Made by a program: the position numbers and the translations under genes. A model generated the notes under the pieces. That model was not told the DNA's origin. It did no database searches and saw only the letters and a program-made list of their open reading frames with translations. Source: Naegleria gruberi (taxonomy: Eukaryota). Taken from it: DNA of 15,337 bases. Of this stretch, positions 1 to 15,337 are shown one piece after another. The stretch is taken from the NCBI GenBank assembly GCA_000004985.1, contig GG738973.1, one strand, 5' to 3'. Numbering within the stretch: the stretch's first letter is position 1; the number at the start of each line of letters is the position of its first letter.

Positions 1-253
1 CGGGTCAATTTAAGGTATTGTCTGATTTCAATTCCGCAACCATTCTAAAAGAAAATCAAGAATTGGGATTATTAACTACTGAAAAACAAGCTGTATTACT
101 GCTGTTGAGAAGGAGAATCAAGACTTCAAGAAGGAAAATCAAGACCTCAAAACCCGTATTACTGATGTTGAGAAGGAGAACGAAGGCTTTAAAATCCGTA
201 TTACTAATGTTGAACAAGAATTGCAACTTATGCAAATTCTTAATGCCTTATAA
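1..253 (+). CDS. 3' end of a heptad-repeat coiled-coil protein gene. It is partial, continues upstream of the window, and has an apparent 1-nt frameshift near 97-101.
   Basis: Frame 3 is open from the window edge to ~100 and reads ...GQFKVLSDFNSATILKENQELGLLTTEKQAV. Frame 2 is open from 83 to the TAA at 251-253 and reads ...AVEKENQDFKKENQDLKTRITDVEKENEGFKIRITNVEQELQLMQILNAL*. Both segments are E/K/Q/N-rich heptad sequence, so a single indel around gctgtatta|ctgctgttgag is the simplest link between them. Frame 2 has a TGA at 80-82, so neither frame alone is complete. This may be a true pseudogene or a draft-assembly error. Confidence 0.4.
104..214 (+). repeat. Internal coding tandem repeats (21-nt heptad units) inside the coiled-coil gene.
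   Basis: aatcaagac recurs at 116-124 and 137-145 (21-nt spacing, ENQDFKK/ENQDLKT). gttgagaaggagaa[t/c][c/g]aag recurs at 104-122 and 167-185 (63-nt spacing, 17/19 identical). cgtattact[g/a]atgttga recurs at 155-172 and 197-214 (42-nt spacing). Confidence 0.6.
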
Positions 254-262
254 TGCTCCTTT

Positions 263-556
263 ATGTTGTTTACTGAAAAGTATTTACAAGAAAAAACTGG
301 AAGTTGGTGGGAAAAAATGGATAATTACATCAACCTTACTAATCCACAAGTTCTTACTGTTGGGTTATCTTTCTCTGATATCAAAACACTTTGGCAATTC
401 TATACCAACAATTACCCTCAAAGGAATAAGATTGCACACACTGCAACAAAAACAATATCTTTATTTAATGATATATTAAACAAGCTCATTGAAGAATTCC
501 TAAACTGGGCAGAACAACACGATCCTTTTATTCACACTCTCTGTGAACTCACTTAG
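263..556 (+). CDS. Hypothetical 97-aa ORF whose stop codon lies inside the left terminal inverted repeat.
   Basis: ATG at 263 lies in the same frame as the coiled-coil reading frame, 9 nt after its TAA. The protein is MLFTEKYLQEKTGSWWEKMDNYINLTNPQVLTVGLSFSDIKTLWQFYTNNYPQRNKIAHTATKTISLFNDILNKLIEEFLNWAEQHDPFIHTLCELT. Composition is plausibly coding but I recognise no family. The last 19 nt, including the TAG at 554-556, fall within the 43-bp inverted repeat. By chance, roughly one ORF of this length is expected in this much AT-rich DNA. Confidence 0.3.
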   Translation: MLFTEKYLQEKTGSWWEKMDNYINLTNPQVLTVGLSFSDIKTLWQFYTNNYPQRNKIAHTATKTISLFNDILNKLIEEFLNWAEQHDPFIHTLCELT

Positions 557-580
557 TGTGAATTAGACTAACGCTGAAGC
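538..580. repeat. Left terminal inverted repeat, 43 bp.
   Basis: tctctgtgaactcacttagtgtgaattagactaacgctgaagc is the exact reverse complement of 1387-1429 (43/43). The match ends on both sides: 537 versus 1430 and 581 versus 1386 do not pair. Confidence 0.65.
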
Positions 581-1386
581 AGTGAAAGTTGGCCCAAAAA
601 ATTTTTTGTCAAAAAAATGGCAAAGTCAAGAAAAATGGGCAAAAAAATGCAAAGTCAGAGATTTCCCTCCTTGCAAAACAGCCCGCCAACACCGTTACGA
701 ATAAAATTTGAAATAAATAGAAATTTTTCACCTTTAAATAGTGGTTTTATTGAAGATTAAAGTAATGTTTCTACCAACAACCGTATCAGAGTACCTCGTA
801 AGCTAGTGGACAAGGATGACAAGCAACCTAGAGTGCTCCAATAACTGGTCAAAGAATAAGGTGTAACTTCTCCAAATTCGTTGGTGGTCAACAGCAAGGA
901 TTTGTCTACTTCCATCTATGATATTCTTGCTGAAGGAAGACAACCCTTAAAACCATTTCACATTCTTCATGTTAACAACACTATGGCTACTTGTTTTCCT
1001 GCGGCACTTGGCGATGTTCTTTACAGCAATGGAATCCATCATACAACAATTACGAATTAATTAATGGTCCACGAGATGAGTATGAAGTTTTCGAAAAGAC
1101 TTACCTTAGAGGAGAGAGGCAGAGAAAGTACATAACAAAAACTACCTCCACTGTGGTGGGAAGGCGAACGAGGTGAATAGGATTGACATCATCACAAGAT
1201 ATTTGTTTTTGACCAATGATATGGAAGATGACTTGGTGCCTCTGGTGCTGACTACAGTTCCGATGATGGTGTGAGTAGTGATGATGAGTAATTAATTTTT
1301 TTTTATTAAATTTAAACATTAAGAGGGGCGCGAGTTTTTGTAACTTTGCCATTTGTTTAAGGGTCGCGAGCGACACTTTTTACCAG

Positions 1387-1429
1387 GCTTCAGCGTTAGT
1401 CTAATTCACACTAAGTGAGTTCACAGAGA
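1387..1429. repeat. Right terminal inverted repeat, 43 bp.
   Basis: gcttcagcgttagtctaattcacactaagtgagttcacagaga is the reverse complement of 538-580 (43/43). Confidence 0.65.
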
Positions 1430-1938
1430 CAAGAAGTACTACTCTCAACACTTCAAGATGATTCAAATGGTCAGACTGCAACTGCACATGAAATAAATAT
1501 GAATTTCGGTTGATATTTTAATAGCAGATATATGAATGGTAAAATTACCAGCTCTATTGAGTGAGTTGGTCTGTATCTATGGTTAAGGGATTGAGCGATG
1601 ATCATTGATCTTTGATACAGAAAGAGTCTTAACAATGATTGAGAACAAATTTCCAAACCCTCTGATTCGTCAAATATGAATACTTCACCAATCAAAATAT
1701 TGAATTCTTCCATTCAAATTTTTAGTAACTTATCTATTGCTTCCCATACGTTCTAAATTTGCTCAATTTGAATGATTTTAAGAATGATTGAAATGCGCTC
1801 ATTTATCTTCTGAATAGTATTAAAAGATAAAAACTCAATGATGTTGGTTCGTACCCGTAATCAATTACTAATAAAGAGTTGTTTCTTTGAAATATCTGAA
1901 TCGTCCAATGAACATGACTCCACACAATAGTAATTTAG

Positions 1939-4900
1939 NNNNNNNNNNNNNNNNNNNNNNNNNNNNNNNNNNNNNNNNNNNNNNNNNNNNNNNNNNNNNN
2001 NNNNNNNNNNNNNNNNNNNNNNNNNNNNNNNNNNNNNNNNNNNNNNNNNNNNNNNNNNNNNNNNNNNNNNNNNNNNNNNNNNNNNNNNNNNNNNNNNNNN
2101 NNNNNNNNNNNNNNNNNNNNNNNNNNNNNNNNNNNNNNNNNNNNNNNNNNNNNNNNNNNNNNNNNNNNNNNNNNNNNNNNNNNNNNNNNNNNNNNNNNNN
2201 NNNNNNNNNNNNNNNNNNNNNNNNNNNNNNNNNNNNNNNNNNNNNNNNNNNNNNNNNNNNNNNNNNNNNNNNNNNNNNNNNNNNNNNNNNNNNNNNNNNN
2301 NNNNNNNNNNNNNNNNNNNNNNNNNNNNNNNNNNNNNNNNNNNNNNNNNNNNNNNNNNNNNNNNNNNNNNNNNNNNNNNNNNNNNNNNNNNNNNNNNNNN
2401 NNNNNNNNNNNNNNNNNNNNNNNNNNNNNNNNNNNNNNNNNNNNNNNNNNNNNNNNNNNNNNNNNNNNNNNNNNNNNNNNNNNNNNNNNNNNNNNNNNNN
2501 NNNNNNNNNNNNNNNNNNNNNNNNNNNNNNNNNNNNNNNNNNNNNNNNNNNNNNNNNNNNNNNNNNNNNNNNNNNNNNNNNNNNNNNNNNNNNNNNNNNN
2601 NNNNNNNNNNNNNNNNNNNNNNNNNNNNNNNNNNNNNNNNNNNNNNNNNNNNNNNNNNNNNNNNNNNNNNNNNNNNNNNNNNNNNNNNNNNNNNNNNNNN
2701 NNNNNNNNNNNNNNNNNNNNNNNNNNNNNNNNNNNNNNNNNNNNNNNNNNNNNNNNNNNNNNNNNNNNNNNNNNNNNNNNNNNNNNNNNNNNNNNNNNNN
2801 NNNNNNNNNNNNNNNNNNNNNNNNNNNNNNNNNNNNNNNNNNNNNNNNNNNNNNNNNNNNNNNNNNNNNNNNNNNNNNNNNNNNNNNNNNNNNNNNNNNN
2901 NNNNNNNNNNNNNNNNNNNNNNNNNNNNNNNNNNNNNNNNNNNNNNNNNNNNNNNNNNNNNNNNNNNNNNNNNNNNNNNNNNNNNNNNNNNNNNNNNNNN
3001 NNNNNNNNNNNNNNNNNNNNNNNNNNNNNNNNNNNNNNNNNNNNNNNNNNNNNNNNNNNNNNNNNNNNNNNNNNNNNNNNNNNNNNNNNNNNNNNNNNNN
3101 NNNNNNNNNNNNNNNNNNNNNNNNNNNNNNNNNNNNNNNNNNNNNNNNNNNNNNNNNNNNNNNNNNNNNNNNNNNNNNNNNNNNNNNNNNNNNNNNNNNN
3201 NNNNNNNNNNNNNNNNNNNNNNNNNNNNNNNNNNNNNNNNNNNNNNNNNNNNNNNNNNNNNNNNNNNNNNNNNNNNNNNNNNNNNNNNNNNNNNNNNNNN
3301 NNNNNNNNNNNNNNNNNNNNNNNNNNNNNNNNNNNNNNNNNNNNNNNNNNNNNNNNNNNNNNNNNNNNNNNNNNNNNNNNNNNNNNNNNNNNNNNNNNNN
3401 NNNNNNNNNNNNNNNNNNNNNNNNNNNNNNNNNNNNNNNNNNNNNNNNNNNNNNNNNNNNNNNNNNNNNNNNNNNNNNNNNNNNNNNNNNNNNNNNNNNN
3501 NNNNNNNNNNNNNNNNNNNNNNNNNNNNNNNNNNNNNNNNNNNNNNNNNNNNNNNNNNNNNNNNNNNNNNNNNNNNNNNNNNNNNNNNNNNNNNNNNNNN
3601 NNNNNNNNNNNNNNNNNNNNNNNNNNNNNNNNNNNNNNNNNNNNNNNNNNNNNNNNNNNNNNNNNNNNNNNNNNNNNNNNNNNNNNNNNNNNNNNNNNNN
3701 NNNNNNNNNNNNNNNNNNNNNNNNNNNNNNNNNNNNNNNNNNNNNNNNNNNNNNNNNNNNNNNNNNNNNNNNNNNNNNNNNNNNNNNNNNNNNNNNNNNN
3801 NNNNNNNNNNNNNNNNNNNNNNNNNNNNNNNNNNNNNNNNNNNNNNNNNNNNNNNNNNNNNNNNNNNNNNNNNNNNNNNNNNNNNNNNNNNNNNNNNNNN
3901 NNNNNNNNNNNNNNNNNNNNNNNNNNNNNNNNNNNNNNNNNNNNNNNNNNNNNNNNNNNNNNNNNNNNNNNNNNNNNNNNNNNNNNNNNNNNNNNNNNNN
4001 NNNNNNNNNNNNNNNNNNNNNNNNNNNNNNNNNNNNNNNNNNNNNNNNNNNNNNNNNNNNNNNNNNNNNNNNNNNNNNNNNNNNNNNNNNNNNNNNNNNN
4101 NNNNNNNNNNNNNNNNNNNNNNNNNNNNNNNNNNNNNNNNNNNNNNNNNNNNNNNNNNNNNNNNNNNNNNNNNNNNNNNNNNNNNNNNNNNNNNNNNNNN
4201 NNNNNNNNNNNNNNNNNNNNNNNNNNNNNNNNNNNNNNNNNNNNNNNNNNNNNNNNNNNNNNNNNNNNNNNNNNNNNNNNNNNNNNNNNNNNNNNNNNNN
4301 NNNNNNNNNNNNNNNNNNNNNNNNNNNNNNNNNNNNNNNNNNNNNNNNNNNNNNNNNNNNNNNNNNNNNNNNNNNNNNNNNNNNNNNNNNNNNNNNNNNN
4401 NNNNNNNNNNNNNNNNNNNNNNNNNNNNNNNNNNNNNNNNNNNNNNNNNNNNNNNNNNNNNNNNNNNNNNNNNNNNNNNNNNNNNNNNNNNNNNNNNNNN
4501 NNNNNNNNNNNNNNNNNNNNNNNNNNNNNNNNNNNNNNNNNNNNNNNNNNNNNNNNNNNNNNNNNNNNNNNNNNNNNNNNNNNNNNNNNNNNNNNNNNNN
4601 NNNNNNNNNNNNNNNNNNNNNNNNNNNNNNNNNNNNNNNNNNNNNNNNNNNNNNNNNNNNNNNNNNNNNNNNNNNNNNNNNNNNNNNNNNNNNNNNNNNN
4701 NNNNNNNNNNNNNNNNNNNNNNNNNNNNNNNNNNNNNNNNNNNNNNNNNNNNNNNNNNNNNNNNNNNNNNNNNNNNNNNNNNNNNNNNNNNNNNNNNNNN
4801 NNNNNNNNNNNNNNNNNNNNNNNNNNNNNNNNNNNNNNNNNNNNNNNNNNNNNNNNNNNNNNNNNNNNNNNNNNNNNNNNNNNNNNNNNNNNNNNNNNNN

Positions 4901-6386
4901 NNNNNNNNNNNNNNNNNNNNNNNNNNNNNNNNNNNNNNNNNNNNNNNNNNNNNNNNNNNNNNNNNNNNNNNNNNNNNNNNNNNNNNNNNNNNNNNNNNNN
5001 NNNNNNNNNNNNNNNNNNNNNNNNNNNNNNNNNNNNNNNNNNNNNNNNNNNNNNNNNNNNNNNNNNNNNNNNNNNNNNNNNNNNNNNNNNNNNNNNNNNN
5101 NNNNNNNNNNNNNNNNNNNNNNNNNNNNNNNNNNNNNNNNNNNNNNNNNNNNNNNNNNNNNNNNNNNNNNNNNNNNNNNNNNNNNNNNNNNNNNNNNNNN
5201 NNNNNNNNNNNNNNNNNNNNNNNNNNNNNNNNNNNNNNNNNNNNNNNNNNNNNNNNNNNNNNNNNNNNNNNNNNNNNNNNNNNNNNNNNNNNNNNNNNNN
5301 NNNNNNNNNNNNNNNNNNNNNNNNNNNNNNNNNNNNNNNNNNNNNNNNNNNNNNNNNNNNNNNNNNNNNNNNNNNNNNNNNNNNNNNNNNNNNNNNNNNN
5401 NNNNNNNNNNNNNNNNNNNNNNNNNNNNNNNNNNNNNNNNNNNNNNNNNNNNNNNNNNNNNNNNNNNNNNNNNNNNNNNNNNNNNNNNNNNNNNNNNNNN
5501 NNNNNNNNNNNNNNNNNNNNNNNNNNNNNNNNNNNNNNNNNNNNNNNNNNNNNNNNNNNNNNNNNNNNNNNNNNNNNNNNNNNNNNNNNNNNNNNNNNNN
5601 NNNNNNNNNNNNNNNNNNNNNNNNNNNNNNNNNNNNNNNNNNNNNNNNNNNNNNNNNNNNNNNNNNNNNNNNNNNNNNNNNNNNNNNNNNNNNNNNNNNN
5701 NNNNNNNNNNNNNNNNNNNNNNNNNNNNNNNNNNNNNNNNNNNNNNNNNNNNNNNNNNNNNNNNNNNNNNNNNNNNNNNNNNNNNNNNNNNNNNNNNNNN
5801 NNNNNNNNNNNNNNNNNNNNNNNNNNNNNNNNNNNNNNNNNNNNNNNNNNNNNNNNNNNNNNNNNNNNNNNNNNNNNNNNNNNNNNNNNNNNNNNNNNNN
5901 NNNNNNNNNNNNNNNNNNNNNNNNNNNNNNNNNNNNNNNNNNNNNNNNNNNNNNNNNNNNNNNNNNNNNNNNNNNNNNNNNNNNNNNNNNNNNNNNNNNN
6001 NNNNNNNNNNNNNNNNNNNNNNNNNNNNNNNNNNNNNNNNNNNNNNNNNNNNNNNNNNNNNNNNNNNNNNNNNNNNNNNNNNNNNNNNNNNNNNNNNNNN
6101 NNNNNNNNNNNNNNNNNNNNNNNNNNNNNNNNNNNNNNNNNNNNNNNNNNNNNNNNNNNNNNNNNNNNNNNNNNNNNNNNNNNNNNNNNNNNNNNNNNNN
6201 NNNNNNNNNNNNNNNNNNNNNNNNNNNNNNNNNNNNNNNNNNNNNNNNNNNNNNNNNNNNNNNNNNNNNNNNNNNNNNNNNNNNNNNNNNNNNNNNNNNN
6301 NNNNNNNNNNNNNNNNNNNNNNNNNNNNNNNNNNNNNNNNNNNNNNNNNNNNNNNNNNNNNNNNNNNNNNNNNNNNNNNNNNNNNN
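1939..6386. other. Run of 4,448 N (scaffold gap or hard-masked sequence).
   Basis: Uninterrupted n characters. The ORFs in the provided track that span it are X-translation artefacts. Confidence 0.99.
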
Positions 6387-6512
6387 TGTGGCACTAAAAC
6401 ACCACCATTTGCAATCCGCTAATGTCAATGCAATGAATAGAGGAAAAATAGAAAGCATTGATATCCCAACAATCTTACTATGAAATGAAGATTTCTTTTG
6501 TTTAGACTTGGC

Positions 6513-6674
6513 TTAATTAAACTTGAAGAAACTCATTACATAATGAACTGCACCAAGTATGGTGCCACTCAAGATATTCACATACGATCCAATTTGACTT
6601 AGATTAGAATTGAAAATGGCTCCATAATCACCAGTTGAATAATCAGTTTTCAAAAAGAAAAAGTAGATTGACAT
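6513..6674 (-). CDS. Possible small ORF or terminal exon encoding a hydrophobic C-terminal segment. Weak.
   Basis: The minus-strand ATG at 6674-6672 opens a 53-aa ORF (MSIYFFFLKTDYSTGDYGAIFNSNLSQIGSYVNILSGTILGAVHYVMSFFKFN*) with TAA at 6515-6513. The frame is open upstream to a TAA at 6812-6810 (99 codons in total). A polypyrimidine-AG motif (ttttcatttcag) lies just 5' of the ATG, around 6685-6695. The ORF is too short for the supplied track, and I recognise no homology. Confidence 0.15.
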   Translation of the reverse strand: MSIYFFFLKTDYSTGDYGAIFNSNLSQIGSYVNILSGTILGAVHYVMSFFKFN

Positions 6675-7030
6675 AACTATGCCTATAACTGAAATGAAAA
6701 CATGAGGATAATTCTCCTGCCCATTTTTTTTGATATCTTTCTCTTCTATTAATAGTAGAGATTTGGAGTTACTAGTATTAGAAAATATTATGCTTTTAAA
6801 TGATTCTTCTTAATGAAATTTATTCAAAATATTGTTTGTAATATTGTACTTTACAATATTGAGCCAATGGTAGGTCTAAATATGTGTTCGTAATCATAGT
6901 AATGCGACAGCCCATTGTATTTGGAAGTATTTGCATGAAGTGATAACATTCTTAAAAAAAACGAAATGAATGTATGTTGATGCTCTGTAATTATTAGTTT
7001 GAAGACTAACACCCCATTCTCGTTGTTATT

Positions 7031-7133
7031 TGATGATCATCTTTTGATATATTGGTGGATGATGAATATTTGTGATTTTTAATATGTGATGATATTTTGT
7101 GTGGATGACGACGGCTAATCATCAATAATCATC
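7031..7133. promoter_or_regulatory. Cluster of (T)GATGA motifs in both orientations, 100-200 bp upstream of the secreted-protein gene.
   Basis: tgatga at 7031-7036. gatgatga at 7058-7065. tgatga at 7087-7092. gatga at 7104-7108. tcatca at 7119-7124 and tcatc at 7129-7133 are the reverse-complement forms. That is six or more copies in ~100 bp of AT-rich intergenic DNA. Function is inferred only from position. Confidence 0.2.
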
Positions 7134-7229
7134 TTTATCATAATGGAATAATTATCTTCTATTAATATGAATAATAATATTTACATGCTATCATCTCATT
7201 ATTAACTTCTAACATGTATTATTGCTTTC

Positions 7230-7316
7230 ATGAAAATTATAACAAAACAGCCTAGAAATATTTGCCTCGTTCTCCTCCTTCTCATTGTTGCTCTCGTAGT
7301 AGCTCCATCATACCAA
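7230..7316 (+). other. Predicted signal peptide of the secreted protein, about 26-29 aa.
   Basis: A basic n-region (KQPR) is followed by a 16-residue hydrophobic h-region (NICLVLLLLIVALVVA) and a small polar c-region (PSYQ). The exact cleavage site is not determinable by eye. Confidence 0.55.
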
Positions 7317-7862
7317 TTGTCTCTCTCACCAGAACTTCGTGCCACTTGTTTGGCTGCCATTCAAAGCTATGATAAGTGTACCTTCTATACACAATGTTTG
7401 GAAAAGATCAAGCCTTGTGGTCCTAATGGTTATGCTCTTGGATATGGTTACAAGTATTGTTCTAAATTCTTCTCTGATGTTAATAGTGGAGCTTACAAGA
7501 GTGAATATGCTCAAAAGTGGGTTTCTTCAACTGGTCACTGTTTGCAAAAGTTCTTGATGCAAAATGTTGTTGAAAAGTTGTTGTCTAATACTGGATCTGA
7601 ATGGAATTGTGAACGTATCATTGATGCTAGCTTTAATTCCCATCCTGGATGTTATACTGATTCCATCTCACCTATTGATGGTCAAAAGTATAGTATTTGT
7701 AAGCTTAGAAATGTTTTTGATGTCAAGACTGTTTTGATGACTGTCGATGCTAAGGACTTGTTGACTGCTAGATCTATGAAGCAAATTGTTGGTGTCTTGA
7801 AGAATTGTATGTCTGATGTCTTGTCTTTGGATGAAGTCAATGAATTGAATGATTACCTTTAA
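7230..7862 (+). CDS. Secreted cysteine-rich protein, 210 aa, with a signal peptide and stanniocalcin-like cysteine spacing.
   Basis: ATG at 7230 to TAA at 7860-7862, uninterrupted. Strong yeast-like codon bias (ttg, aag, gct, tct, ggt, aga) with no CTG codons. The N-terminus MKIITKQPR-NICLVLLLLIVALVVA-PSYQ has the n-region, h-region and c-region of a signal peptide. The mature part has 10 Cys with spacings 9,5,6,13,26,22,13,15,35. Human STC1 is 8,4,5,8,23,15,13,6,34. Shared local motifs include RATCL/VVRCL, QCLEK/ACLEN, YCSKFF/ICKSFL, ERIIDA/QRMIAE and GCYTD/ECYSK. The STC1 sequence is recalled from memory. Confidence 0.8.
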   Translation: MKIITKQPRNICLVLLLLIVALVVAPSYQLSLSPELRATCLAAIQSYDKCTFYTQCLEKIKPCGPNGYALGYGYKYCSKFFSDVNSGAYKSEYAQKWVSSTGHCLQKFLMQNVVEKLLSNTGSEWNCERIIDASFNSHPGCYTDSISPIDGQKYSICKLRNVFDVKTVLMTVDAKDLLTARSMKQIVGVLKNCMSDVLSLDEVNELNDYL

Positions 7863-8081
7863 ATTATTTTCCAATTAATTAATTATATTAAATAAATATT
7901 AATTTATTACTACATTTAATACTACGTAGTATGAGAATCATGATGTTATTGAACAAGAACAATTAAGAAGTAGTAACAATTAATTGGTGATGGTGATAGA
8001 AAATTCTCTCTTCCACGTAAGTGCCAGCTAATACAATCCAAAAATTATCATCACAACAATAAAAATTAATTATAAAAAAAT

Positions 8082-8618
8082 ATGAGTGCTTCTACTTCAT
8101 CACATTCAACTGCTCCAATTAAAACCTTCTCATCTGAACATCAGGATATGATCCATGATGCTCAAGCTGATTACTACGGAAAGAGATTGGCCACTTGTTC
8201 AAGTGATGCTACAATTAGAATTTTTGATTTGGCTCCAAGTAATTCTGAGGAACCAAAGTTGGTGGATACTCTCATCGGTCATGAAGGTCCAGTCTGGCAA
8301 GTTAGTTGGGCTCATCCACAATTTGGATCGATAATTGCCAGTTGTTCCTATGATCATAGAGTTATTATTTGGAAGGAAAATCAACAAACTCACAAATTTA
8401 CTAAAGTTTTTGAATATAGACTTGAGAGTAGCGTAAATTCAATCTCTTGGGCTCCTCACGAACATGGACTTCATTTGGCTAGTGCAAGCTCCGACTCACA
8501 AATTACATTCTTCTCCTACGATGAACAAAGCAATAATTGGAAGGTTTCTAATATTAGAGATGCTCACAAAACTGGATGTAACTCTGTTTGTTGGGCTCCT
8601 GCATCACACACTGGTGCT
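8082..8618 (+). CDS. SEC13: SEC13 orthologue (WD40 protein of the COPII coat and Nup84/Nup107 complex). Only the N-terminal 179 codons are present; the rest is lost in the N run.
   Basis: ATG at 8082 in an A-rich context (aaaaaaatATGagt). The translation is [50 protein letters not shown]...[36 protein letters not shown]...[22 protein letters not shown]...GCNSVCWAP. It matches the conserved SEC13 blocks [51 protein letters not shown] and GCN.V.WAP, as recalled for the yeast and human proteins. The ORF is open to the gap edge at 8618. Confidence 0.92.
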
Positions 8619-11600
8619 NNNNNNNNNNNNNNNNNNNNNNNNNNNNNNNNNNNNNNNNNNNNNNNNNNNNNNNNNNNNNNNNNNNNNNNNNNNNNNNNNN
8701 NNNNNNNNNNNNNNNNNNNNNNNNNNNNNNNNNNNNNNNNNNNNNNNNNNNNNNNNNNNNNNNNNNNNNNNNNNNNNNNNNNNNNNNNNNNNNNNNNNNN
8801 NNNNNNNNNNNNNNNNNNNNNNNNNNNNNNNNNNNNNNNNNNNNNNNNNNNNNNNNNNNNNNNNNNNNNNNNNNNNNNNNNNNNNNNNNNNNNNNNNNNN
8901 NNNNNNNNNNNNNNNNNNNNNNNNNNNNNNNNNNNNNNNNNNNNNNNNNNNNNNNNNNNNNNNNNNNNNNNNNNNNNNNNNNNNNNNNNNNNNNNNNNNN
9001 NNNNNNNNNNNNNNNNNNNNNNNNNNNNNNNNNNNNNNNNNNNNNNNNNNNNNNNNNNNNNNNNNNNNNNNNNNNNNNNNNNNNNNNNNNNNNNNNNNNN
9101 NNNNNNNNNNNNNNNNNNNNNNNNNNNNNNNNNNNNNNNNNNNNNNNNNNNNNNNNNNNNNNNNNNNNNNNNNNNNNNNNNNNNNNNNNNNNNNNNNNNN
9201 NNNNNNNNNNNNNNNNNNNNNNNNNNNNNNNNNNNNNNNNNNNNNNNNNNNNNNNNNNNNNNNNNNNNNNNNNNNNNNNNNNNNNNNNNNNNNNNNNNNN
9301 NNNNNNNNNNNNNNNNNNNNNNNNNNNNNNNNNNNNNNNNNNNNNNNNNNNNNNNNNNNNNNNNNNNNNNNNNNNNNNNNNNNNNNNNNNNNNNNNNNNN
9401 NNNNNNNNNNNNNNNNNNNNNNNNNNNNNNNNNNNNNNNNNNNNNNNNNNNNNNNNNNNNNNNNNNNNNNNNNNNNNNNNNNNNNNNNNNNNNNNNNNNN
9501 NNNNNNNNNNNNNNNNNNNNNNNNNNNNNNNNNNNNNNNNNNNNNNNNNNNNNNNNNNNNNNNNNNNNNNNNNNNNNNNNNNNNNNNNNNNNNNNNNNNN
9601 NNNNNNNNNNNNNNNNNNNNNNNNNNNNNNNNNNNNNNNNNNNNNNNNNNNNNNNNNNNNNNNNNNNNNNNNNNNNNNNNNNNNNNNNNNNNNNNNNNNN
9701 NNNNNNNNNNNNNNNNNNNNNNNNNNNNNNNNNNNNNNNNNNNNNNNNNNNNNNNNNNNNNNNNNNNNNNNNNNNNNNNNNNNNNNNNNNNNNNNNNNNN
9801 NNNNNNNNNNNNNNNNNNNNNNNNNNNNNNNNNNNNNNNNNNNNNNNNNNNNNNNNNNNNNNNNNNNNNNNNNNNNNNNNNNNNNNNNNNNNNNNNNNNN
9901 NNNNNNNNNNNNNNNNNNNNNNNNNNNNNNNNNNNNNNNNNNNNNNNNNNNNNNNNNNNNNNNNNNNNNNNNNNNNNNNNNNNNNNNNNNNNNNNNNNNN
10001 NNNNNNNNNNNNNNNNNNNNNNNNNNNNNNNNNNNNNNNNNNNNNNNNNNNNNNNNNNNNNNNNNNNNNNNNNNNNNNNNNNNNNNNNNNNNNNNNNNNN
10101 NNNNNNNNNNNNNNNNNNNNNNNNNNNNNNNNNNNNNNNNNNNNNNNNNNNNNNNNNNNNNNNNNNNNNNNNNNNNNNNNNNNNNNNNNNNNNNNNNNNN
10201 NNNNNNNNNNNNNNNNNNNNNNNNNNNNNNNNNNNNNNNNNNNNNNNNNNNNNNNNNNNNNNNNNNNNNNNNNNNNNNNNNNNNNNNNNNNNNNNNNNNN
10301 NNNNNNNNNNNNNNNNNNNNNNNNNNNNNNNNNNNNNNNNNNNNNNNNNNNNNNNNNNNNNNNNNNNNNNNNNNNNNNNNNNNNNNNNNNNNNNNNNNNN
10401 NNNNNNNNNNNNNNNNNNNNNNNNNNNNNNNNNNNNNNNNNNNNNNNNNNNNNNNNNNNNNNNNNNNNNNNNNNNNNNNNNNNNNNNNNNNNNNNNNNNN
10501 NNNNNNNNNNNNNNNNNNNNNNNNNNNNNNNNNNNNNNNNNNNNNNNNNNNNNNNNNNNNNNNNNNNNNNNNNNNNNNNNNNNNNNNNNNNNNNNNNNNN
10601 NNNNNNNNNNNNNNNNNNNNNNNNNNNNNNNNNNNNNNNNNNNNNNNNNNNNNNNNNNNNNNNNNNNNNNNNNNNNNNNNNNNNNNNNNNNNNNNNNNNN
10701 NNNNNNNNNNNNNNNNNNNNNNNNNNNNNNNNNNNNNNNNNNNNNNNNNNNNNNNNNNNNNNNNNNNNNNNNNNNNNNNNNNNNNNNNNNNNNNNNNNNN
10801 NNNNNNNNNNNNNNNNNNNNNNNNNNNNNNNNNNNNNNNNNNNNNNNNNNNNNNNNNNNNNNNNNNNNNNNNNNNNNNNNNNNNNNNNNNNNNNNNNNNN
10901 NNNNNNNNNNNNNNNNNNNNNNNNNNNNNNNNNNNNNNNNNNNNNNNNNNNNNNNNNNNNNNNNNNNNNNNNNNNNNNNNNNNNNNNNNNNNNNNNNNNN
11001 NNNNNNNNNNNNNNNNNNNNNNNNNNNNNNNNNNNNNNNNNNNNNNNNNNNNNNNNNNNNNNNNNNNNNNNNNNNNNNNNNNNNNNNNNNNNNNNNNNNN
11101 NNNNNNNNNNNNNNNNNNNNNNNNNNNNNNNNNNNNNNNNNNNNNNNNNNNNNNNNNNNNNNNNNNNNNNNNNNNNNNNNNNNNNNNNNNNNNNNNNNNN
11201 NNNNNNNNNNNNNNNNNNNNNNNNNNNNNNNNNNNNNNNNNNNNNNNNNNNNNNNNNNNNNNNNNNNNNNNNNNNNNNNNNNNNNNNNNNNNNNNNNNNN
11301 NNNNNNNNNNNNNNNNNNNNNNNNNNNNNNNNNNNNNNNNNNNNNNNNNNNNNNNNNNNNNNNNNNNNNNNNNNNNNNNNNNNNNNNNNNNNNNNNNNNN
11401 NNNNNNNNNNNNNNNNNNNNNNNNNNNNNNNNNNNNNNNNNNNNNNNNNNNNNNNNNNNNNNNNNNNNNNNNNNNNNNNNNNNNNNNNNNNNNNNNNNNN
11501 NNNNNNNNNNNNNNNNNNNNNNNNNNNNNNNNNNNNNNNNNNNNNNNNNNNNNNNNNNNNNNNNNNNNNNNNNNNNNNNNNNNNNNNNNNNNNNNNNNNN

Positions 11601-12832
11601 NNNNNNNNNNNNNNNNNNNNNNNNNNNNNNNNNNNNNNNNNNNNNNNNNNNNNNNNNNNNNNNNNNNNNNNNNNNNNNNNNNNNNNNNNNNNNNNNNNNN
11701 NNNNNNNNNNNNNNNNNNNNNNNNNNNNNNNNNNNNNNNNNNNNNNNNNNNNNNNNNNNNNNNNNNNNNNNNNNNNNNNNNNNNNNNNNNNNNNNNNNNN
11801 NNNNNNNNNNNNNNNNNNNNNNNNNNNNNNNNNNNNNNNNNNNNNNNNNNNNNNNNNNNNNNNNNNNNNNNNNNNNNNNNNNNNNNNNNNNNNNNNNNNN
11901 NNNNNNNNNNNNNNNNNNNNNNNNNNNNNNNNNNNNNNNNNNNNNNNNNNNNNNNNNNNNNNNNNNNNNNNNNNNNNNNNNNNNNNNNNNNNNNNNNNNN
12001 NNNNNNNNNNNNNNNNNNNNNNNNNNNNNNNNNNNNNNNNNNNNNNNNNNNNNNNNNNNNNNNNNNNNNNNNNNNNNNNNNNNNNNNNNNNNNNNNNNNN
12101 NNNNNNNNNNNNNNNNNNNNNNNNNNNNNNNNNNNNNNNNNNNNNNNNNNNNNNNNNNNNNNNNNNNNNNNNNNNNNNNNNNNNNNNNNNNNNNNNNNNN
12201 NNNNNNNNNNNNNNNNNNNNNNNNNNNNNNNNNNNNNNNNNNNNNNNNNNNNNNNNNNNNNNNNNNNNNNNNNNNNNNNNNNNNNNNNNNNNNNNNNNNN
12301 NNNNNNNNNNNNNNNNNNNNNNNNNNNNNNNNNNNNNNNNNNNNNNNNNNNNNNNNNNNNNNNNNNNNNNNNNNNNNNNNNNNNNNNNNNNNNNNNNNNN
12401 NNNNNNNNNNNNNNNNNNNNNNNNNNNNNNNNNNNNNNNNNNNNNNNNNNNNNNNNNNNNNNNNNNNNNNNNNNNNNNNNNNNNNNNNNNNNNNNNNNNN
12501 NNNNNNNNNNNNNNNNNNNNNNNNNNNNNNNNNNNNNNNNNNNNNNNNNNNNNNNNNNNNNNNNNNNNNNNNNNNNNNNNNNNNNNNNNNNNNNNNNNNN
12601 NNNNNNNNNNNNNNNNNNNNNNNNNNNNNNNNNNNNNNNNNNNNNNNNNNNNNNNNNNNNNNNNNNNNNNNNNNNNNNNNNNNNNNNNNNNNNNNNNNNN
12701 NNNNNNNNNNNNNNNNNNNNNNNNNNNNNNNNNNNNNNNNNNNNNNNNNNNNNNNNNNNNNNNNNNNNNNNNNNNNNNNNNNNNNNNNNNNNNNNNNNNN
12801 NNNNNNNNNNNNNNNNNNNNNNNNNNNNNNNN
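8619..12832. other. Run of 4,214 N (scaffold gap or hard-masked sequence). It swallows the 3' ~0.4 kb of SEC13 plus ~3.8 kb of unknown sequence.
   Basis: Uninterrupted n characters. The ORFs in the track that span it are artefacts. Confidence 0.99.
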
Positions 12833-12853
12833 GAATTCATTCAAATGATTCAA

Positions 12854-13369
12854 TTATTCTTCATCGTACAAGTGAGAGAATTCAATAACATCATCCAAAT
12901 CATCCACATCAACCATTCTCTTCTGATAAATACCATCTTTTGGATGATTTCTATGCCACTTTTTATGATTTCTTCCTTCAGATCTGAATCTTCCATTTCT
13001 AGTCTGTTTTTTGAAAGCTCTTTCTTCATGATGAATTGCATTCCATTCCACCTTATTAAATCCCTTCTCAGTATTAAACTTGTGAAAGGAATTCAAAAGA
13101 ACAGGTTCTGCTCTCTTTATATTCGCTCTCTCTGCAACCCAATCACATCGTTGATGATTTTCCTTATACTGACGATCATAGAGTTCCAATTCAGCAGTAT
13201 AATTCCTCTCCAATCGATGAGCTCCGGCAGAATATTCCAAATTACTTGATGATTTTTGTTTGTATTTGGAGCAACCTCCGTGATAGGATGTATCACTAGT
13301 CTTTGCTACACGAGGTGTTTGCCATTTAACTTTACCACTTCTAGCCAATGAGCCGTGAATAACTGCCAT
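12854..13369 (-). CDS. 171-aa protein with a ribosomal protein eS30 (RPS30/FAU)-like N-terminal motif fused to a non-ribosomal basic/acidic extension.
   Basis: Minus-strand ATG at 13369-13367 and TAA at 12856-12854, uninterrupted. The 5' leader is A-rich (aaacaaagaacaatATG). The N-terminus is MAVIHGSLARSGKVKWQTPRVAK. The canonical eS30 is (M)[22 protein letters not shown] in yeast and [21 protein letters not shown] in human FAU, so ~17 of 20 residues are identical. From residue ~24 onward (TSDTSYHGGCSKYKQ...RNGRFRSEGRNHKKWHRNHPKDGIYQKRMVDVDDLDDVIEFSHLYDEE) there is no resemblance to eS30. The extension keeps the AGA/TTG/AAG codon bias and a 148-codon open frame, so it is coding and not an intron. 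Confidence 0.7.
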   Translation of the reverse strand: MAVIHGSLARSGKVKWQTPRVAKTSDTSYHGGCSKYKQKSSSNLEYSAGAHRLERNYTAELELYDRQYKENHQRCDWVAERANIKRAEPVLLNSFHKFNTEKGFNKVEWNAIHHEERAFKKQTRNGRFRSEGRNHKKWHRNHPKDGIYQKRMVDVDDLDDVIEFSHLYDEE

Positions 13370-13560
13370 ATTGTTCTTTGTTTAATTGTTGTTTGTTTTT
13401 TTTGGGGTTAAAAATAGAAGAATTCACTTGAAAAAATATGAAATTTGCTTTTGTTCTATTTTTATAATATTGTAAGGAGTTTTATGTAACCTCATTATTC
13501 GGATAGGTTGTTGCATTGATATTTCAGCAGGAAATATGTTAAGGTATTGATGTTTCCAAT

Positions 13561-13908
13561 GTGGACAGTTCTTTTGGTGTTGAATATGCTTTAAACGACG
13601 ACACCTTCTCATCAAACAATGTAGAAGAAAGAGCTCAATTCATCAAGACACTCACTGCCAAATTGTATTGCATCCAAACAATCACTTTTGAGAAAAAGGA
13701 ATACTCCCTTGTGGCAATACCTAAAATATCATGTAGCAAAGTGATAAACAAGGGAACAAAAGAGGATTTTGAAAGGTTTATGGACCACGAGTTCATTACC
13801 AATTCACTGCTGAATGATTTGAAACGATATTTCAAGAGTTATGAATTTGAATTAACAGACAAAGCGAGAATTGACAATCAAAAGAGAAAAGAGTACAAAA
13901 GAGAATGA
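13561..13908 (+). CDS. Hypothetical protein (~115 aa) whose start is unresolved.
   Basis: A 121-codon open frame runs from the TAA at 13540-13542 to the TGA at 13906-13908. The sequence is charged and protein-like with AGA/AAG/TTG bias (…NDDTFSSNNVEERAQFIKTLTAKLYCIQTITFEKKEYSLVAIPKISCSKVINKGTKEDFERFMDHEFITNSLLNDLKRYFKSYEFELTDKARIDNQKRKEYKRE). No in-frame ATG occurs before 13783. An ATG at 13559 sits in the +1 frame and runs only 11 codons. This suggests a 1-nt indel or an unseen upstream exon. Confidence 0.35.
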   Translation: MDSSFGVEYALNDDTFSSNNVEERAQFIKTLTAKLYCIQTITFEKKEYSLVAIPKISCSKVINKGTKEDFERFMDHEFITNSLLNDLKRYFKSYEFELTDKARIDNQKRKEYKRE

Positions 13909-13959
13909 TGGCCGCTGGCTTGTGCAATTTTACAAAAACATTCAATTTACTGCAGTAAC

Positions 13960-14100
13960 AATTCCTTAAATAAAACACCATCGTTTCAGAAAAATAATAG
14001 AGAACTCTGATAATATTTTCTGATGAAATTCTCCAAGTGAAATCTCCACAGTTGTCTGAAAGGAATTAGAAAAATTAGCCAATTTTCCAATACTTTAAGG
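13960..14100 (-). pseudogene. Degenerate LRR-like remnant downstream of the LRR gene, on the same strand.
   Basis: aaattagccaattttccaa at 14072-14090 is identical to 14524-14542 inside the LRR CDS (19/19; it encodes LGKLANL). The minus-strand translation around it reads ...IGKLANFSNSFQTTVEISLGEF..., resembling the gene's NSLGKLANLSKLEILDL repeat, but is broken by stops. The 3' part also loosely resembles the gene's terminal ctggaattgagactgaaaacaagaaaataa. Confidence 0.25.
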
Positions 14101-14201
14101 AAATCAAGTTTCAGTGAGAAAATTTGTAAAATAAAAATGTCTCAACTCCTACATTATCTTTGACATTAGAATAGCCAGTCTGTTTTCTTGTAGCTGTAAA
14201 C

Positions 14202-15281
14202 TTATTTTCTTGTTTTCAGTCTCAATTCCAGAGGGAGAGAATTGACATCAACCTTTGAACAGCCACCAACATGAATTGTTTGCAACTTTGAACATGCTTT
14301 GGCAATAGTAACAAGTCCCTTATTAGTAATATCACAAAATCTTACATCCAATTCTTCCAAATTAGTTAAAGAACTCAACTCGGTTACCCCCTTGTCATGA
14401 ATTTGATCCTCTCCTAAATTCATTACATAGAGCTTTCTCAAAGATTTCACATTTCCAATCATGGCGCAACCAGCATCACCAAAAGCTGTGTTTTGTTTCA
14501 AATCCAAAATTTCCAGCTTTGATAAATTAGCCAATTTTCCAAGAGAATTTAATGAGTTACCAATGATTGAATCAGCATAAAGATGTTTAAGATTGGAGAA
14601 AGTACTGATCGTATTGAAAACGTCTTCGCTCATTGTCGCCCTACTCAGATTCAAAACTTGAATAGTATGATTATTTTTGAGGCCTAAGAATTCCTCTCCA
14701 GATATTGCATAACCCTCAAGTTTCAGAGTGTGTAATGTCTGTATTGTGTTAAGTGCTGTAAAGAAAATATATGCATTTGCCTTCTTCTCGTGTCCAAAAT
14801 GGTTTCTATCAAATTTACAATCCAAAACTTGAAGATTTTTCCAATTAGCAACACAATCTCCAACGTCACTAATGAAATTACGACTTTCAATTCTAATAAT
14901 TTCCAAATTGGGCGTGTGAGTAACAAACTCGCTAGTTATGAATGTAGTCGGTCCACAATATTCCAAATGTTTCAAAGCATAATTGGTTTCTGCAAAAACT
15001 TTTGCAAAATTCTCATCCAAATAGTAAGATCTTGAATTTGTCATCTTTGTCCTGAGAACACTTCTCCCAAAGCAAATTTTCTCCAGATTGTTAAATTTAC
15101 GTACGGCCAATGTTATTAAAGACTCAAATGTTTCAATTCCTTCAATATTGAGCTCGGTTATTTTGGTACAAAGAGAATTGTCAGTTGTAAAGAGTTCTAA
15201 TTTCTCAACAAGATTGTTCTCAATTTCATTTTCATCAGCTAATTGGATAGTTCTCTTAGGGAATGAAAAAAGNGTAATGGC
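14202..15281 (-). CDS. Cysteine-containing leucine-rich-repeat protein (F-box/LRR, AMN1/GRR1-like LRR class) with an unresolved N-terminus.
   Basis: The minus-strand frame is open from the TAA at 15284-15282 to the TAA at 14204-14202. Successive ~24-26-residue LxxLxLxxCxxIT/SDxG(L) repeats are present, for example NLSKLEILDLKQNTAFGDAGCAMIG, LRKLYVMNLGEDQIHDKGVTEL, LTNLEELDVRFCDITNKGLVTIAKACSKLQTIHVGGCSKV. The first in-frame ATG is at 15044-15042. LRR-like sequence (…LVEKLELFTTDNSLCTKITELNIEGIETFESLITLAVRKFNNLEKI…) continues upstream with no ATG, and the track's 15110 start is a TTG. An ambiguous base at 15273 lies in this stretch. Codon bias is consistent with the other genes. Confidence 0.8.
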   Translation of the reverse strand, partial: AIXLFSFPKRTIQLADENEIENNLVEKLELFTTDNSLCTKITELNIEGIETFESLITLAVRKFNNLEKICFGRSVLRTKMTNSRSYYLDENFAKVFAETNYALKHLEYCGPTTFITSEFVTHTPNLEIIRIESRNFISDVGDCVANWKNLQVLDCKFDRNHFGHEKKANAYIFFTALNTIQTLHTLKLEGYAISGEEFLGLKNNHTIQVLNLSRATMSEDVFNTISTFSNLKHLYADSIIGNSLNSLGKLANLSKLEILDLKQNTAFGDAGCAMIGNVKSLRKLYVMNLGEDQIHDKGVTELSSLTNLEELDVRFCDITNKGLVTIAKACSKLQTIHVGGCSKVDVNSLPLELRLKTRK

Positions 15282-15337
15282 TTATTGGATAAACTATTGA
15301 CATTTGGTGTCTATGTAGACTTTGAATTGAATGAGGT

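What the first reader, a model, noticed from the sequence alone, without database searches (positions are those of the whole stretch)
538..1429. 892-bp element bounded by perfect 43-bp terminal inverted repeats (MITE-like)
538-580 and 1387-1429 are exact reverse complements (43/43) with sharp boundaries. The interior is non-coding, contains low-complexity A/T runs, and has local GC-rich islands atypical of the surrounding DNA. Perfect TIR identity implies recent mobility or copying. No clean target-site duplication is visible, so the superfamily cannot be assigned.
Basis: seen in the sequence. Interest (0 to 1): 0.5.

Follow-up and report, generated by a model that had tools for sequence, protein, structure and literature searches.

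The report
Gutted transposon copy in Naegleria
The 892-bp segment is a real but ordinary defective DNA transposon in the amoeba Naegleria gruberi: it kept both inverted ends and scraps of its own gene but lost the enzyme core. Its parent family is unclassified and shows no target-site duplication.

Summary
Positions 538-580 and 1387-1429 are exact reverse complements (43/43) with sharp outer edges, and chance expects about 1e-17 such pairs.

The window is a complete 15,337-bp Naegleria gruberi scaffold.

The interior is not anonymous non-coding DNA. On the + strand, 743-1161 holds frameshifted, stop-ridden, internally deleted remnants of the first ~276 residues of N. gruberi protein EFC35415.1 (tblastn E 3e-14). 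An acidic tail plus stop codon follows at 1232-1291.

Three things are shared with a near-full-length 2.8-kb relative on metagenome contig L003: the terminal TCTCT, the inner TIR, and the subterminal AAAAAATGGCAAAGTC-type repeats. So this is one unit, an internally deleted, non-autonomous copy of a TIR transposon.

The encoded protein family (4 members at E<1e-10 among 1.84 billion representatives) matches no Pfam transposase model. It is remotely related to DUF6589 (hhalign 92.7%) and has DDE-like motifs.

Neither interpretable insertion shows a TSD.

Verdict: an ordinary kind of object from an uncharacterised family. Interest is moderate.

The parts
538..580 (+). Left terminal inverted repeat, 43 nt, starting 5'-TCTCT
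   Evidence: Exact reverse complement of 1387-1429. The terminal TCTCT and the inner TTAGAC...GAAGC part are shared with the TIR of the L003 element.
1387..1429 (-). Right terminal inverted repeat, 43 nt
611..657 (+). Left subterminal direct repeats: AAAAAATGGCAAAGTCA at 612-628 and AAAAAAATGCAAAGTCA at 641-657. Inferred transposase-binding sites.
   Evidence: Family D10 and inverted pair I6; motif positions. L003 has three copies of AAAAAATTTGCAAGTCGAG at the equivalent place. Window left end vs L003 left end: Smith-Waterman z = 7.7.
1335..1358 (-). Right subterminal copy of the same motif, inverted (…ACTTTGCCATTTGTTT)
   Evidence: I6, 83% complementary to 611-634. Right end vs L003 right end z = 6.5.
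692..698 (+). CCGTTAC motif in the 5' leader, conserved upstream of the ORF in relatives. Possible promoter or Myb-type site; this is inference.
   Evidence: CCGTTAC at window 692 and L003 411; GTAACGG twice plus CCGTTA at L001 361, 391, 420, all within ~100 nt of the start codon.
743..826 (+). Gene remnant: GFIED*SNVSTNNRIRVPRKLVDKDDKQ = EFC35415.1 (P0121) residues 17-44, with an in-frame stop
   Evidence: tblastn E 3e-14 for the chained match 743-1033; translation.
859..943 (+). Gene remnants in two frames: RCNFSKFVGG (P0121 aa ~110-119) and SKDLSTSIYDILAEGRQ (aa 121-137, 16/17 identical). P0121 aa 45-~105 are deleted before this block.
974..1072 (+). Gene remnants: NNTMATCFPAALGDVLYSNG (P0121 aa 178-197, 15/20) and IHHTTITN*LMVH (aa 213-225, with Gln codon changed to TAA). 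aa 138-177 and 198-212 are deleted.
   Evidence: There is also a 21-nt 90% DNA match to the same codons of the P0124 gene in L001.
1075..1161 (+). Gene remnant in a third frame: DEYEVFEKTYLRGERQRKYITKTTSTVVG = family motif (S/Y)DN(L/F)EF....KY.IG......IHTITS (P0121 aa ~244-276). This includes the first conserved acidic motif and is the last N-terminal piece before the large deletion.
   Evidence: P0125 234-252 vs 1102-1158, 42% identity but E 1.9, not significant alone. Its support is position: colinear with the significant 743-1033 match. Alignments A1, A2.
1162..1231 (+). Probable junction of the large internal deletion and a weak C-terminal remnant: RRTR*IGLTSS vs KRTDFIGLPDS of L003 ORF2 and GRTDFNGVDEA of P0124
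   Evidence: Weak: 6/11 identical, tblastn E ~1; DNA alignment not significant, z 1.9. Suggestive only.
1232..1291 (+). Acidic Ser/Asp C-terminal tail LGASGADYSSDDGVSSDDE plus TAA stop (1289-1291)
   Evidence: It occupies the same position and has the same composition as the C-termini of P0124 (…DDSSDSDYLGTESENSEE…) and L003 ORF2 (…SSSDYCSDGESTDTDADMSDE*). The match is compositional, so weak on its own.
1292..1386 (+). 3' untranslated and subterminal region: T9 run and two CGCGAG boxes (1329, 1365) around the inverted ATGGCAAAGT motif
263..537 (+). Flanking host ORF that runs into the left TIR, where it stops at TAG 554-556
   Evidence: After clean removal of 538-1429 the frame continues for 22 codons to a TAA at 1496-1498. 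This is weak evidence, because about 1 in 3 random frames would also stay open that long.

Best explanation
Positions 538-1429 are one non-autonomous copy of a TIR-bounded DNA transposon family of Naegleria gruberi. The parent element is about 2.8-3.3 kb. Its layout is: 40-nt-class TIRs starting TCTCT, A-rich subterminal repeats (AAAAAATGGCAAAGTC type) inside both ends, a short leader with a CCGTTAC box, and a single ORF of ~800-880 aa ending in an acidic Ser/Asp tail.

This copy kept both ends and the subterminal repeats, which are everything needed in cis. Its ORF has been reduced to patches of the first ~276 codons, with several small deletions, two frameshifts and several stop codons, joined to the last ~20-45 codons. 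The whole central part carrying the conserved GDQ, GDWHFH and NDEFxE motifs is gone. It therefore cannot move by itself. If it moves at all, it would be mobilised in trans by the protein of full-length copies (EFC35415.1-like) binding the TIR and subterminal repeats.

Shown: the inverted repeat; the homology of the interior to the family's protein; the colinear 5'-to-3' order; the homology of both ends to a full-length relative; loss of the core; absence of a TSD.

Inferred: that the family protein is the transposase (a DDE-type enzyme, judged from conserved acidic motifs and single-ORF-between-TIRs architecture); that the subterminal repeats are its binding sites; that the internal deletions arose by abortive gap repair after excision; that the insertion interrupts a host ORF.
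For: - Inverted repeat: perfect 43-nt TIRs, with chance excluded.
- Source: the window is a complete N. gruberi scaffold.
- First protein hit: a concatenated six-frame translation of the interior retrieved one protein out of 5.8 billion, N. gruberi EFC35415.1 (P0121), E 5.8e-8.
- Mapping: tblastn places P0121 aa 17-197 on 743-1033 (+) at E 3e-14, with deletions and stops. Further colinear blocks reach aa ~276.
- Family: HMMER over 1.84 billion representatives found P0124 (881 aa, 8.5e-88), P0125 (704 aa, 2.6e-75) and N. gruberi EFC35548.1 (6.8e-16).
- Full-length relative: on L003 the P0125 gene lies between inverted GTTCTCT…CTAGATCGCGGGAAGT ends. It has three subterminal AAAAAATTTGCAAGTCGAG repeats, a CCGTTAC box and an acidic tail followed by a stop.
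- End homology: window ends vs L003 ends give z = 7.7 (left) and 6.5 (right) against dinucleotide shuffles.
- Conserved motifs: SDNLEF, NGDQVFASF, GDWHFH and NDEFxE across the family.
- Remote relationship: the same motifs align with a Pfam DUF6589 protein by hhalign, probability 92.7%, E 4e-7, 467 columns.
- Negatives: no RNA family or tRNA in the region.
Against: - No target-site duplication at this copy or at the L003 copy. Nearly all eukaryotic cut-and-paste families make one (PMC4122938).
- No second copy of the TIR was found, because no searchable collection holds N. gruberi DNA. Repetitiveness and mobility are therefore unproven.
- The family protein matches no Pfam transposase model and no solved structure.
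- Structure prediction failed (pLDDT 33 and 43), so 'transposase' rests on architecture and motifs only.
- P0121 is only ~70% identical in the matched blocks, so it is a relative, not the parent.
- The C-terminal remnant is weak.
Confidence: 0.82

Rival explanations
1. It is a TIR element carrying remnants of the EFC35415.1-like gene, but that protein is not the transposase. It would be a passenger or accessory gene, and the ends would be recognised by an unrelated enzyme encoded elsewhere.
For: No similarity to any known transposase model or structure. DUF6589 has no assigned function. No usable structural model.
Against: In L003 it is the only ORF between the inverted ends, and the same gene sits inside this element. 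The conserved D…D…E-like acidic motifs, with a conserved His ~25 residues after the second Asp, fit a DDE enzyme. That motif reading is my inference from the motif layout of hAT, Mutator, P and CMC enzymes.
Confidence: 0.1
2. The two 43-nt repeats are the ends of two different larger elements lying tail to tail or nested, and 538-1429 is not one unit.
For: No TSD brackets the 892-bp unit. The copy number is unknown.
Against: Left-to-right order inside the unit (5' subterminal repeats, leader, N-terminal codons, C-terminal tail, stop, 3' subterminal repeat) is the same as in the full-length L003 element, all on one strand. The outer flanks show no further homology to the family.
Confidence: 0.03
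3. Assembly or cloning artefact (a fold-back chimera) in a small, gap-ridden Sanger-era scaffold.
For: The scaffold is 15 kb with two gaps of 4.2-4.4 kb and a stray N. It duplicates a region of a 665-kb scaffold at ~99% protein identity.
Against: A fold-back artefact would give a long palindrome. It would not give a 43-nt repeat bracketing 806 nt of asymmetric sequence with the anatomy of an independently sampled transposon family.
Confidence: 0.02
4. A host structural or regulatory palindrome (an invertible segment or hairpin-forming regulator) rather than a mobile element.
For: Perfect arms and no TSD.
Against: The interior is a decayed gene of a family found between similar inverted ends in another organism. 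No RNA family matched.
Confidence: 0.02

Closest known systems
Internally deleted non-autonomous derivatives of cut-and-paste transposons (maize Ds from Ac, dSpm from En/Spm, Drosophila KP from P)
   Same: Both TIRs and subterminal repeats are kept. The middle of the single transposase gene is deleted while the 5' and 3' coding scraps remain. Movement would depend on a full-length copy.
   Different: No TSD. The parent family is not hAT, CACTA or P by Pfam. The parent copy itself has not been seen.
MITEs (Tourist/Stowaway type)
   Same: Under 1 kb, with TIRs, no intact ORF and A/T-rich subterminal runs.
   Different: MITEs are defined by high copy number, homogeneity and a TSD diagnostic of their superfamily. 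Copy number is untested here and a TSD is absent. The interior is still recognisably the parent gene, which classical MITEs usually are not.
Spy elements (PHIS superfamily): the described eukaryotic DDE/TIR transposons without TSD (PMC4122938)
   Same: TIRs, a single transposase gene and no TSD.
   Different: Spy inserts between AAA and TTT. Here the flanks are CACAC|…|CAAGA in the window and TTGT|…|ACGAG in L003. No PIF/Harbinger-type DDE_Tnp_4 match.
Pfam DUF6589 proteins (PF20231, function unknown; mostly fungal-like sequences)
   Same: A shared N-terminal module (AP.L..LL … P..LG..L…G..R.ID.L…G.T.SY.T), then the DN.E, GDQ, PG..H and DE..E motifs in the same order.
   Different: The Naegleria-type proteins do not reach the Pfam threshold. 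Identity is ~18-25%. Nothing is known about TIRs around DUF6589 genes, and the one contig fetched, L004, is cut at the gene start.
CMC/CACTA-EnSpm and Kolobok, reported in Naegleria genomes (PMC6125883, PMC9587614)
   Same: TIR DNA transposons of Naegleria. DDE enzymes with long D-to-E spacing.
   Different: CMC-type termini are 5'-CA…TG with 2-5 bp TSDs, and Kolobok makes TTAA TSDs with RR…YY termini. Here the termini are TCTCT…AGAGA and there is no TSD.

Membership tests
Non-autonomous TIR DNA transposon (deletion derivative) | Terminal inverted repeats bounding the unit | tested here: met
   43/43.
Non-autonomous TIR DNA transposon (deletion derivative) | No intact transposase ORF, but sequence derived from an autonomous relative's gene and ends | tested here: met
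   Longest interior ORFs are 59-91 aa with no family match. Remnants of P0121 aa 17-276 are present. Ends are homologous to the L003 full-length element.
Non-autonomous TIR DNA transposon (deletion derivative) | Target-site duplication flanking the insertion | tested here: not met
   None for k = 2-10 with +/-3 nt terminus shifts beyond chance 2-3-mers. The same holds at L003.
Non-autonomous TIR DNA transposon (deletion derivative) | Other copies, an empty site, or insertion polymorphism in the same genome | not testable with these tools
   N. gruberi DNA is not in the searchable collections. Exact look-ups of the host ORF with and without the element found nothing.
MITE (strict sense) | High copy number of homogeneous short elements | not testable with these tools
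   Same limitation. Only two annotated N. gruberi proteins of the family surfaced.
hAT / Mutator / P / piggyBac / Tc1-mariner / PIF-Harbinger / CACTA / KDZ / Plavaka | Transposase matches the superfamily's Pfam model | tested here: not met
   No Pfam hit for P0121, P0124, P0125 or P0126, even at E<=10 or 0.1.
hAT / Mutator / P / piggyBac / Tc1-mariner / PIF-Harbinger / CACTA / KDZ / Plavaka | Diagnostic TSD (8, 9, 7-8, TTAA, TA, TWA, 2-5 bp, 7-8 bp) | tested here: not met
   TSD lengths are from PMC12730594, PMC9587614 and general knowledge.
Kolobok, Sola, Zator, Novosib, Academ, Dada, IS3EU (superfamilies without a Pfam model known to me) | Transposase similarity to Repbase exemplars | not testable with these tools
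   No Repbase or Censor access. All of these make TSDs, which is not met here.
Spy (TSD-less PHIS) | Insertion between AAA and TTT; PIF-like DDE | tested here: not met
   Flanks; Pfam.
Pfam DUF6589 | Score above the Pfam gathering threshold (27 bits) | tested here: not met
   Only the distant hit P0136 scores (167.9 bits). P0121, P0124 and P0125 do not.
Pfam DUF6589 | Remote homology over the whole domain by profile comparison | tested here: inconclusive
   hhalign A1 vs P0136: probability 92.7%, E 4e-7, 467 columns, motifs aligned. HMMER N-terminal matches at E 1e-4 to 1e-3 to ten such proteins. The profile has only 4 sequences.
DDE/RNase H-fold transposase | RNase H-like fold with a catalytic D, D, E triad | tested here: inconclusive

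The most novel reading that the evidence does not exclude
The element and its full-length relatives (EFC35415.1, EFC35548.1, P0124, P0125) represent an undescribed superfamily, or a very deep branch, of eukaryotic TIR DNA transposons. Its transposase would be the first functional context for the DUF6589-like protein superfamily. It would integrate without making a target-site duplication, a property so far described for eukaryotic DDE/TIR elements only in Spy.
Probability: 0.2. Interest if true: 0.6.

Novelty: new member of a known kind. Interest (0 to 1): 0.35.

Why it matters
Taken alone, this is one dead transposon copy in a protist genome with few repeats (5.1%, PMC6125883).

Its value is as a handle. 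It links a set of orphan proteins (two 'predicted proteins' of N. gruberi, a few metagenomic relatives and, remotely, the DUF6589 domain of unknown function) to a concrete mobile-element architecture with defined ends and subterminal repeats.

If the lack of TSD holds up on more copies, the family would be a second, independent case of TSD-less cut-and-paste transposition in eukaryotes.

For genome annotation, it means EFC35415.1 and EFC35548.1 should be treated as transposon genes. It also means the ORF at 263-556 is probably a host gene truncated by the insertion.

Tried and rejected
- **TIR in public DNA collections.** An exact 24-mer of the TIR was absent from genome contigs, viral contigs and metagenome contigs. 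This is uninformative, because the N. gruberi assembly is not in them.
- **Fetching N. gruberi contigs.** The look-up of encoding contigs found nothing for P0121, the window ORF or its paralog.
- **Empty-site test at protein level.** Exact look-ups of the host ORF with and without the element, and of three interior or flanking ORFs, were not in the collection.
- **Pfam.** Interior ORF fragments and all family members gave no transposase family.
- **Rfam and tRNA scans of block 1.** Nothing real.
- **Word-indexed homology search with P0121.** It returned only itself.
- **The search for related loci with the family alignment.** Nothing in three collections.
- **PDB sequence and profile searches.** Nothing.
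- **A TIR for the P0124 locus (L002, TAGACAGTGAT… at 429 and 3691).** Rejected as evidence. Its alignment score of 47 equals the shuffle mean for that length, and it would enclose a carboxyltransferase fragment.
- **DNA-level homology of 1140-1300 to the 3' coding ends of L003 and L001.** Not significant, z 1.9 and 0.5.
- **Alternative terminus parses.** One gives a 2-nt 'AC' and another a 3-nt 'ACA' duplication at the window copy. Both are chance level given 49 shift combinations, they break TIR symmetry, and they are absent at L003.
- **CERE rDNA plasmid of Naegleria.** Considered because the size is similar, and rejected because the window carries Sec13, LRR and RPS30 genes.
- **Literature.** No description of this family, or of DUF6589 as a transposase, was found.

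Full report
**What the window is.**
The 15,337 bases consist of three sequenced blocks: 1-1938, 6387-8618 and 12833-15272. They are separated by N runs of 4448 and 4214 bases, and GC is 33-35%.

The window is eukaryotic. It carries:
- a Sec13-type WD40 gene running into the second gap;
- an LRR protein gene;
- the start of an RPS30 gene with an intron;
- a Cys-rich secreted ORF.

The Sec13 fragment is closest to Willaertia magna at 69% identity. The ORF at 7230-7862 is, residue for residue, Naegleria gruberi EFC35956.1 / XP_002668700.1, recorded on a contig of exactly 15,337 bp. So the window is one complete small scaffold of the N. gruberi assembly. A 209/210-identical protein (EFC47434.1) lies on a 665-kb scaffold. 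The window is therefore probably an alternative haplotype or a recent duplicate of that region.

**The observation.**
Positions 538-580 and 1387-1429 are exact reverse complements, 43 of 43. A 31-nt core occurs only at these two places even with 3 mismatches allowed, against none in 200 shuffles. The chance expectation is about 1e-17. The match ends abruptly on the outside. On the inside it is followed, after ~30 nt, by a second imperfect inverted block (611-634 / 1335-1358, 83%) built around ATGGCAAAGT. That motif also occurs twice as a direct repeat on the left (612-628, 641-657). No TSD exists.

**What the interior is.**
No ORF longer than 91 aa exists, and none matches Pfam. Rfam and tRNA scans are empty.

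A concatenation of all interior reading-frame segments retrieved a single protein from 5.8 billion: N. gruberi EFC35415.1 (P0121, 681 aa, partial, on a 2.5-kb contig). tblastn places P0121 residues 17-197 on 743-1033 of the + strand (E 3e-14), with large gaps and in-frame stops.

Block by block:

| Window | P0121 residues | Note |
|---|---|---|
| 743-826 | 17-44 | 20/28 identical, one stop |
| 859-888 | ~110-119 | |
| 893-943 | 121-137 | 16/17 identical |
| 974-1033 | 178-197 | 15/20 identical |
| 1034-1072 | 213-225 | a Gln codon has become TAA |
| 1075-1161 | ~244-276 | in another frame; includes the family's first conserved acidic motif |

After about 1161 the similarity to the N-terminal half ends. 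A weak match to a C-terminal motif follows (RRTR*IGLTSS against KRTDFIGLPDS; not significant). Then comes an acidic tail, LGASGADYSSDDGVSSDDE, and a TAA at 1232-1291. Family members end the same way.

Everything between, including the motifs GDQVFA, GDWHFH and NDEFxE, is missing. The interior is thus the wreck of one gene, read left to right on one strand.

**The family and a full-length relative.**
HMMER against 1.84 billion representatives found only four proteins below 1e-10:
- P0121 itself;
- P0124 (881 aa, 8.5e-88);
- P0125 (704 aa, 2.6e-75);
- N. gruberi EFC35548.1 (P0126, 6.8e-16).

It also found ten weak N-terminal matches.

P0125 lies on metagenome contig L003, and the gene there is framed much as in the window. 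The layout on L003 is:
- an inverted repeat, GTTCTCT…CTAGATCGCGGGAAGT, at ~247-279, with its complement at 2996-3029;
- three direct copies of AAAAAATTTGCAAGTCGAG just inside the left end, with inverted copies inside the right end;
- a CCGTTAC box ~60 nt before the ATG;
- an ORF (with one frameshift near 2570) ending in …SSSDYCSDGESTDTDADMSDE*, followed by an A/T run.

The window's left 250 nt align to L003's left end with z = 7.7, and its right 200 nt to L003's right end with z = 6.5, against dinucleotide shuffles. Both elements begin with TCTCT.

The P0124 locus (L001/L002) gave no statistically convincing TIR, and I do not use it.

**What the protein may be.**
None of the four proteins matches any Pfam family, including all transposase models, or any PDB sequence.

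One weak hit, P0136, carries Pfam DUF6589 (3.8e-49). A profile comparison of the family alignment with P0136 gives 92.7% probability (E 4e-7) over 467 columns. It aligns SDNLEF with YDNCEL, NGDQ with IGDQ, GDWHFH with PGLFHL, and NDEFTE with VDEDVE. The N-terminal module is shared by all ten weak hits.

**Mechanism, and what is not shown.**
The best reading is a cut-and-paste element that lost its enzyme core. It kept the cis sites, namely the TIR and subterminal repeats, and would be mobilisable only in trans. The patchwork of internal deletions is typical of abortive gap repair after excision, which is again inference.

The absence of a TSD at both interpretable insertions (window and L003) is the one anatomical oddity. 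Eukaryotic TIR/DDE elements almost always make one, Spy being the described exception (PMC4122938). Two sites are too few to claim that the family makes none.

The perfect identity of the TIRs does not by itself indicate a recent jump, because the two TIRs are not templated from each other during transposition.

Copy number, an empty site and polymorphism could not be examined. The TIR is absent from the three DNA collections, but N. gruberi DNA is not held there or in the contig index. Protein-level look-ups for an uninterrupted host ORF failed. Removing 538-1429 does extend the flanking ORF 263-556 by 22 codons, which is compatible with insertion into a gene but not significant.

**Comparison with known systems, and verdict.**
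Functionally this is a Ds-like or KP-like deletion derivative. It is MITE-like in size and ends, but it is not shown to be a MITE in the strict, high-copy sense.

It fails the sequence and TSD criteria of every superfamily testable here:
- hAT, Mutator, P, piggyBac, Tc1/mariner, PIF/Harbinger, CACTA, KDZ and Plavaka, all by Pfam;
- Kolobok by TTAA;
- CMC by CA…TG termini;
- Spy by its AAA|TTT target.

Superfamilies without Pfam models (Sola, Zator, Novosib, Academ, Dada, IS3EU) could not be compared by sequence, and Repbase was not available. I found no paper describing this family or assigning DUF6589 a function.

I therefore file it as a new member of a known kind, a non-autonomous TIR DNA transposon. 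I put a 0.2 chance on the family proving to be an undescribed, TSD-less superfamily that gives DUF6589-like proteins their first functional context.

Noticed in passing
window 1-15337: The window is an entire N. gruberi scaffold. ORF 7230-7862 is EFC35956.1, recorded on a contig of 15,337 bp, and it differs by 1 of 210 residues from EFC47434.1 on a 665-kb scaffold. The small scaffold is probably an unmerged second haplotype or a recent segmental duplicate, which would give a ready-made test for an empty site.
   Followed up: partly
window 1939-6386 and 8619-12832; 15273: Two N runs of 4448 and 4214 bases make up 56% of the scaffold, plus a single N. The Sec13-type gene starting at 8082 runs straight into the second gap, which may explain why no Naegleria Sec13 appeared among the hits (best hit Willaertia magna, 69%).
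   Followed up: no
window 108-212 and 2-253: Tandem 42-nt (14-codon) repeats encode a coiled-coil-like KENQDLKTRITDVE motif at the end of an ORF cut by the scaffold start. That ORF stops at TAA 251-253, and the next ORF (263-556) is in the same frame only three codons later.
   Followed up: no
window 692-698; L003 411-417; L001 361-426: A CCGTTAC / GTAACGG box (resembling a Myb-type site, from my own knowledge) lies within ~100 nt upstream of the family ORF in all three loci. It may be the element's promoter element.
   Followed up: partly
L002 586-810 (= L001 59-283): A 74-aa fragment of a carboxyltransferase (acyl-CoA carboxylase beta-like, Pfam Carboxyl_trans) sits directly upstream of the P0124 gene and breaks off right after …EELGGA. 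Either the element landed in that gene or it captured a host gene fragment.
   Followed up: partly
L003 2560-2600: The P0125 ORF (473-2587) and the following ORF (2568-2897) overlap by 20 nt in different frames. Together they match the uninterrupted P0124, so this is a single frameshift (or assembly error) in an otherwise intact full-length element.
   Followed up: partly
L003 ~180-246 and 3030-3140: The sequence flanking the L003 element on the right encodes a GTPase-like stretch (…FPMLFVINKTDLL…), and the left flank has an open frame too. The element may interrupt a GTPase gene, but the frames do not join cleanly at the proposed termini.
   Followed up: no
window 12854-13369 (-): The ORF begins with a ribosomal protein S30 motif (MAVIHGSLARSGKVK, Pfam S30 positions 2-23) and then diverges, which indicates an intron shortly after codon ~25.
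   Followed up: no
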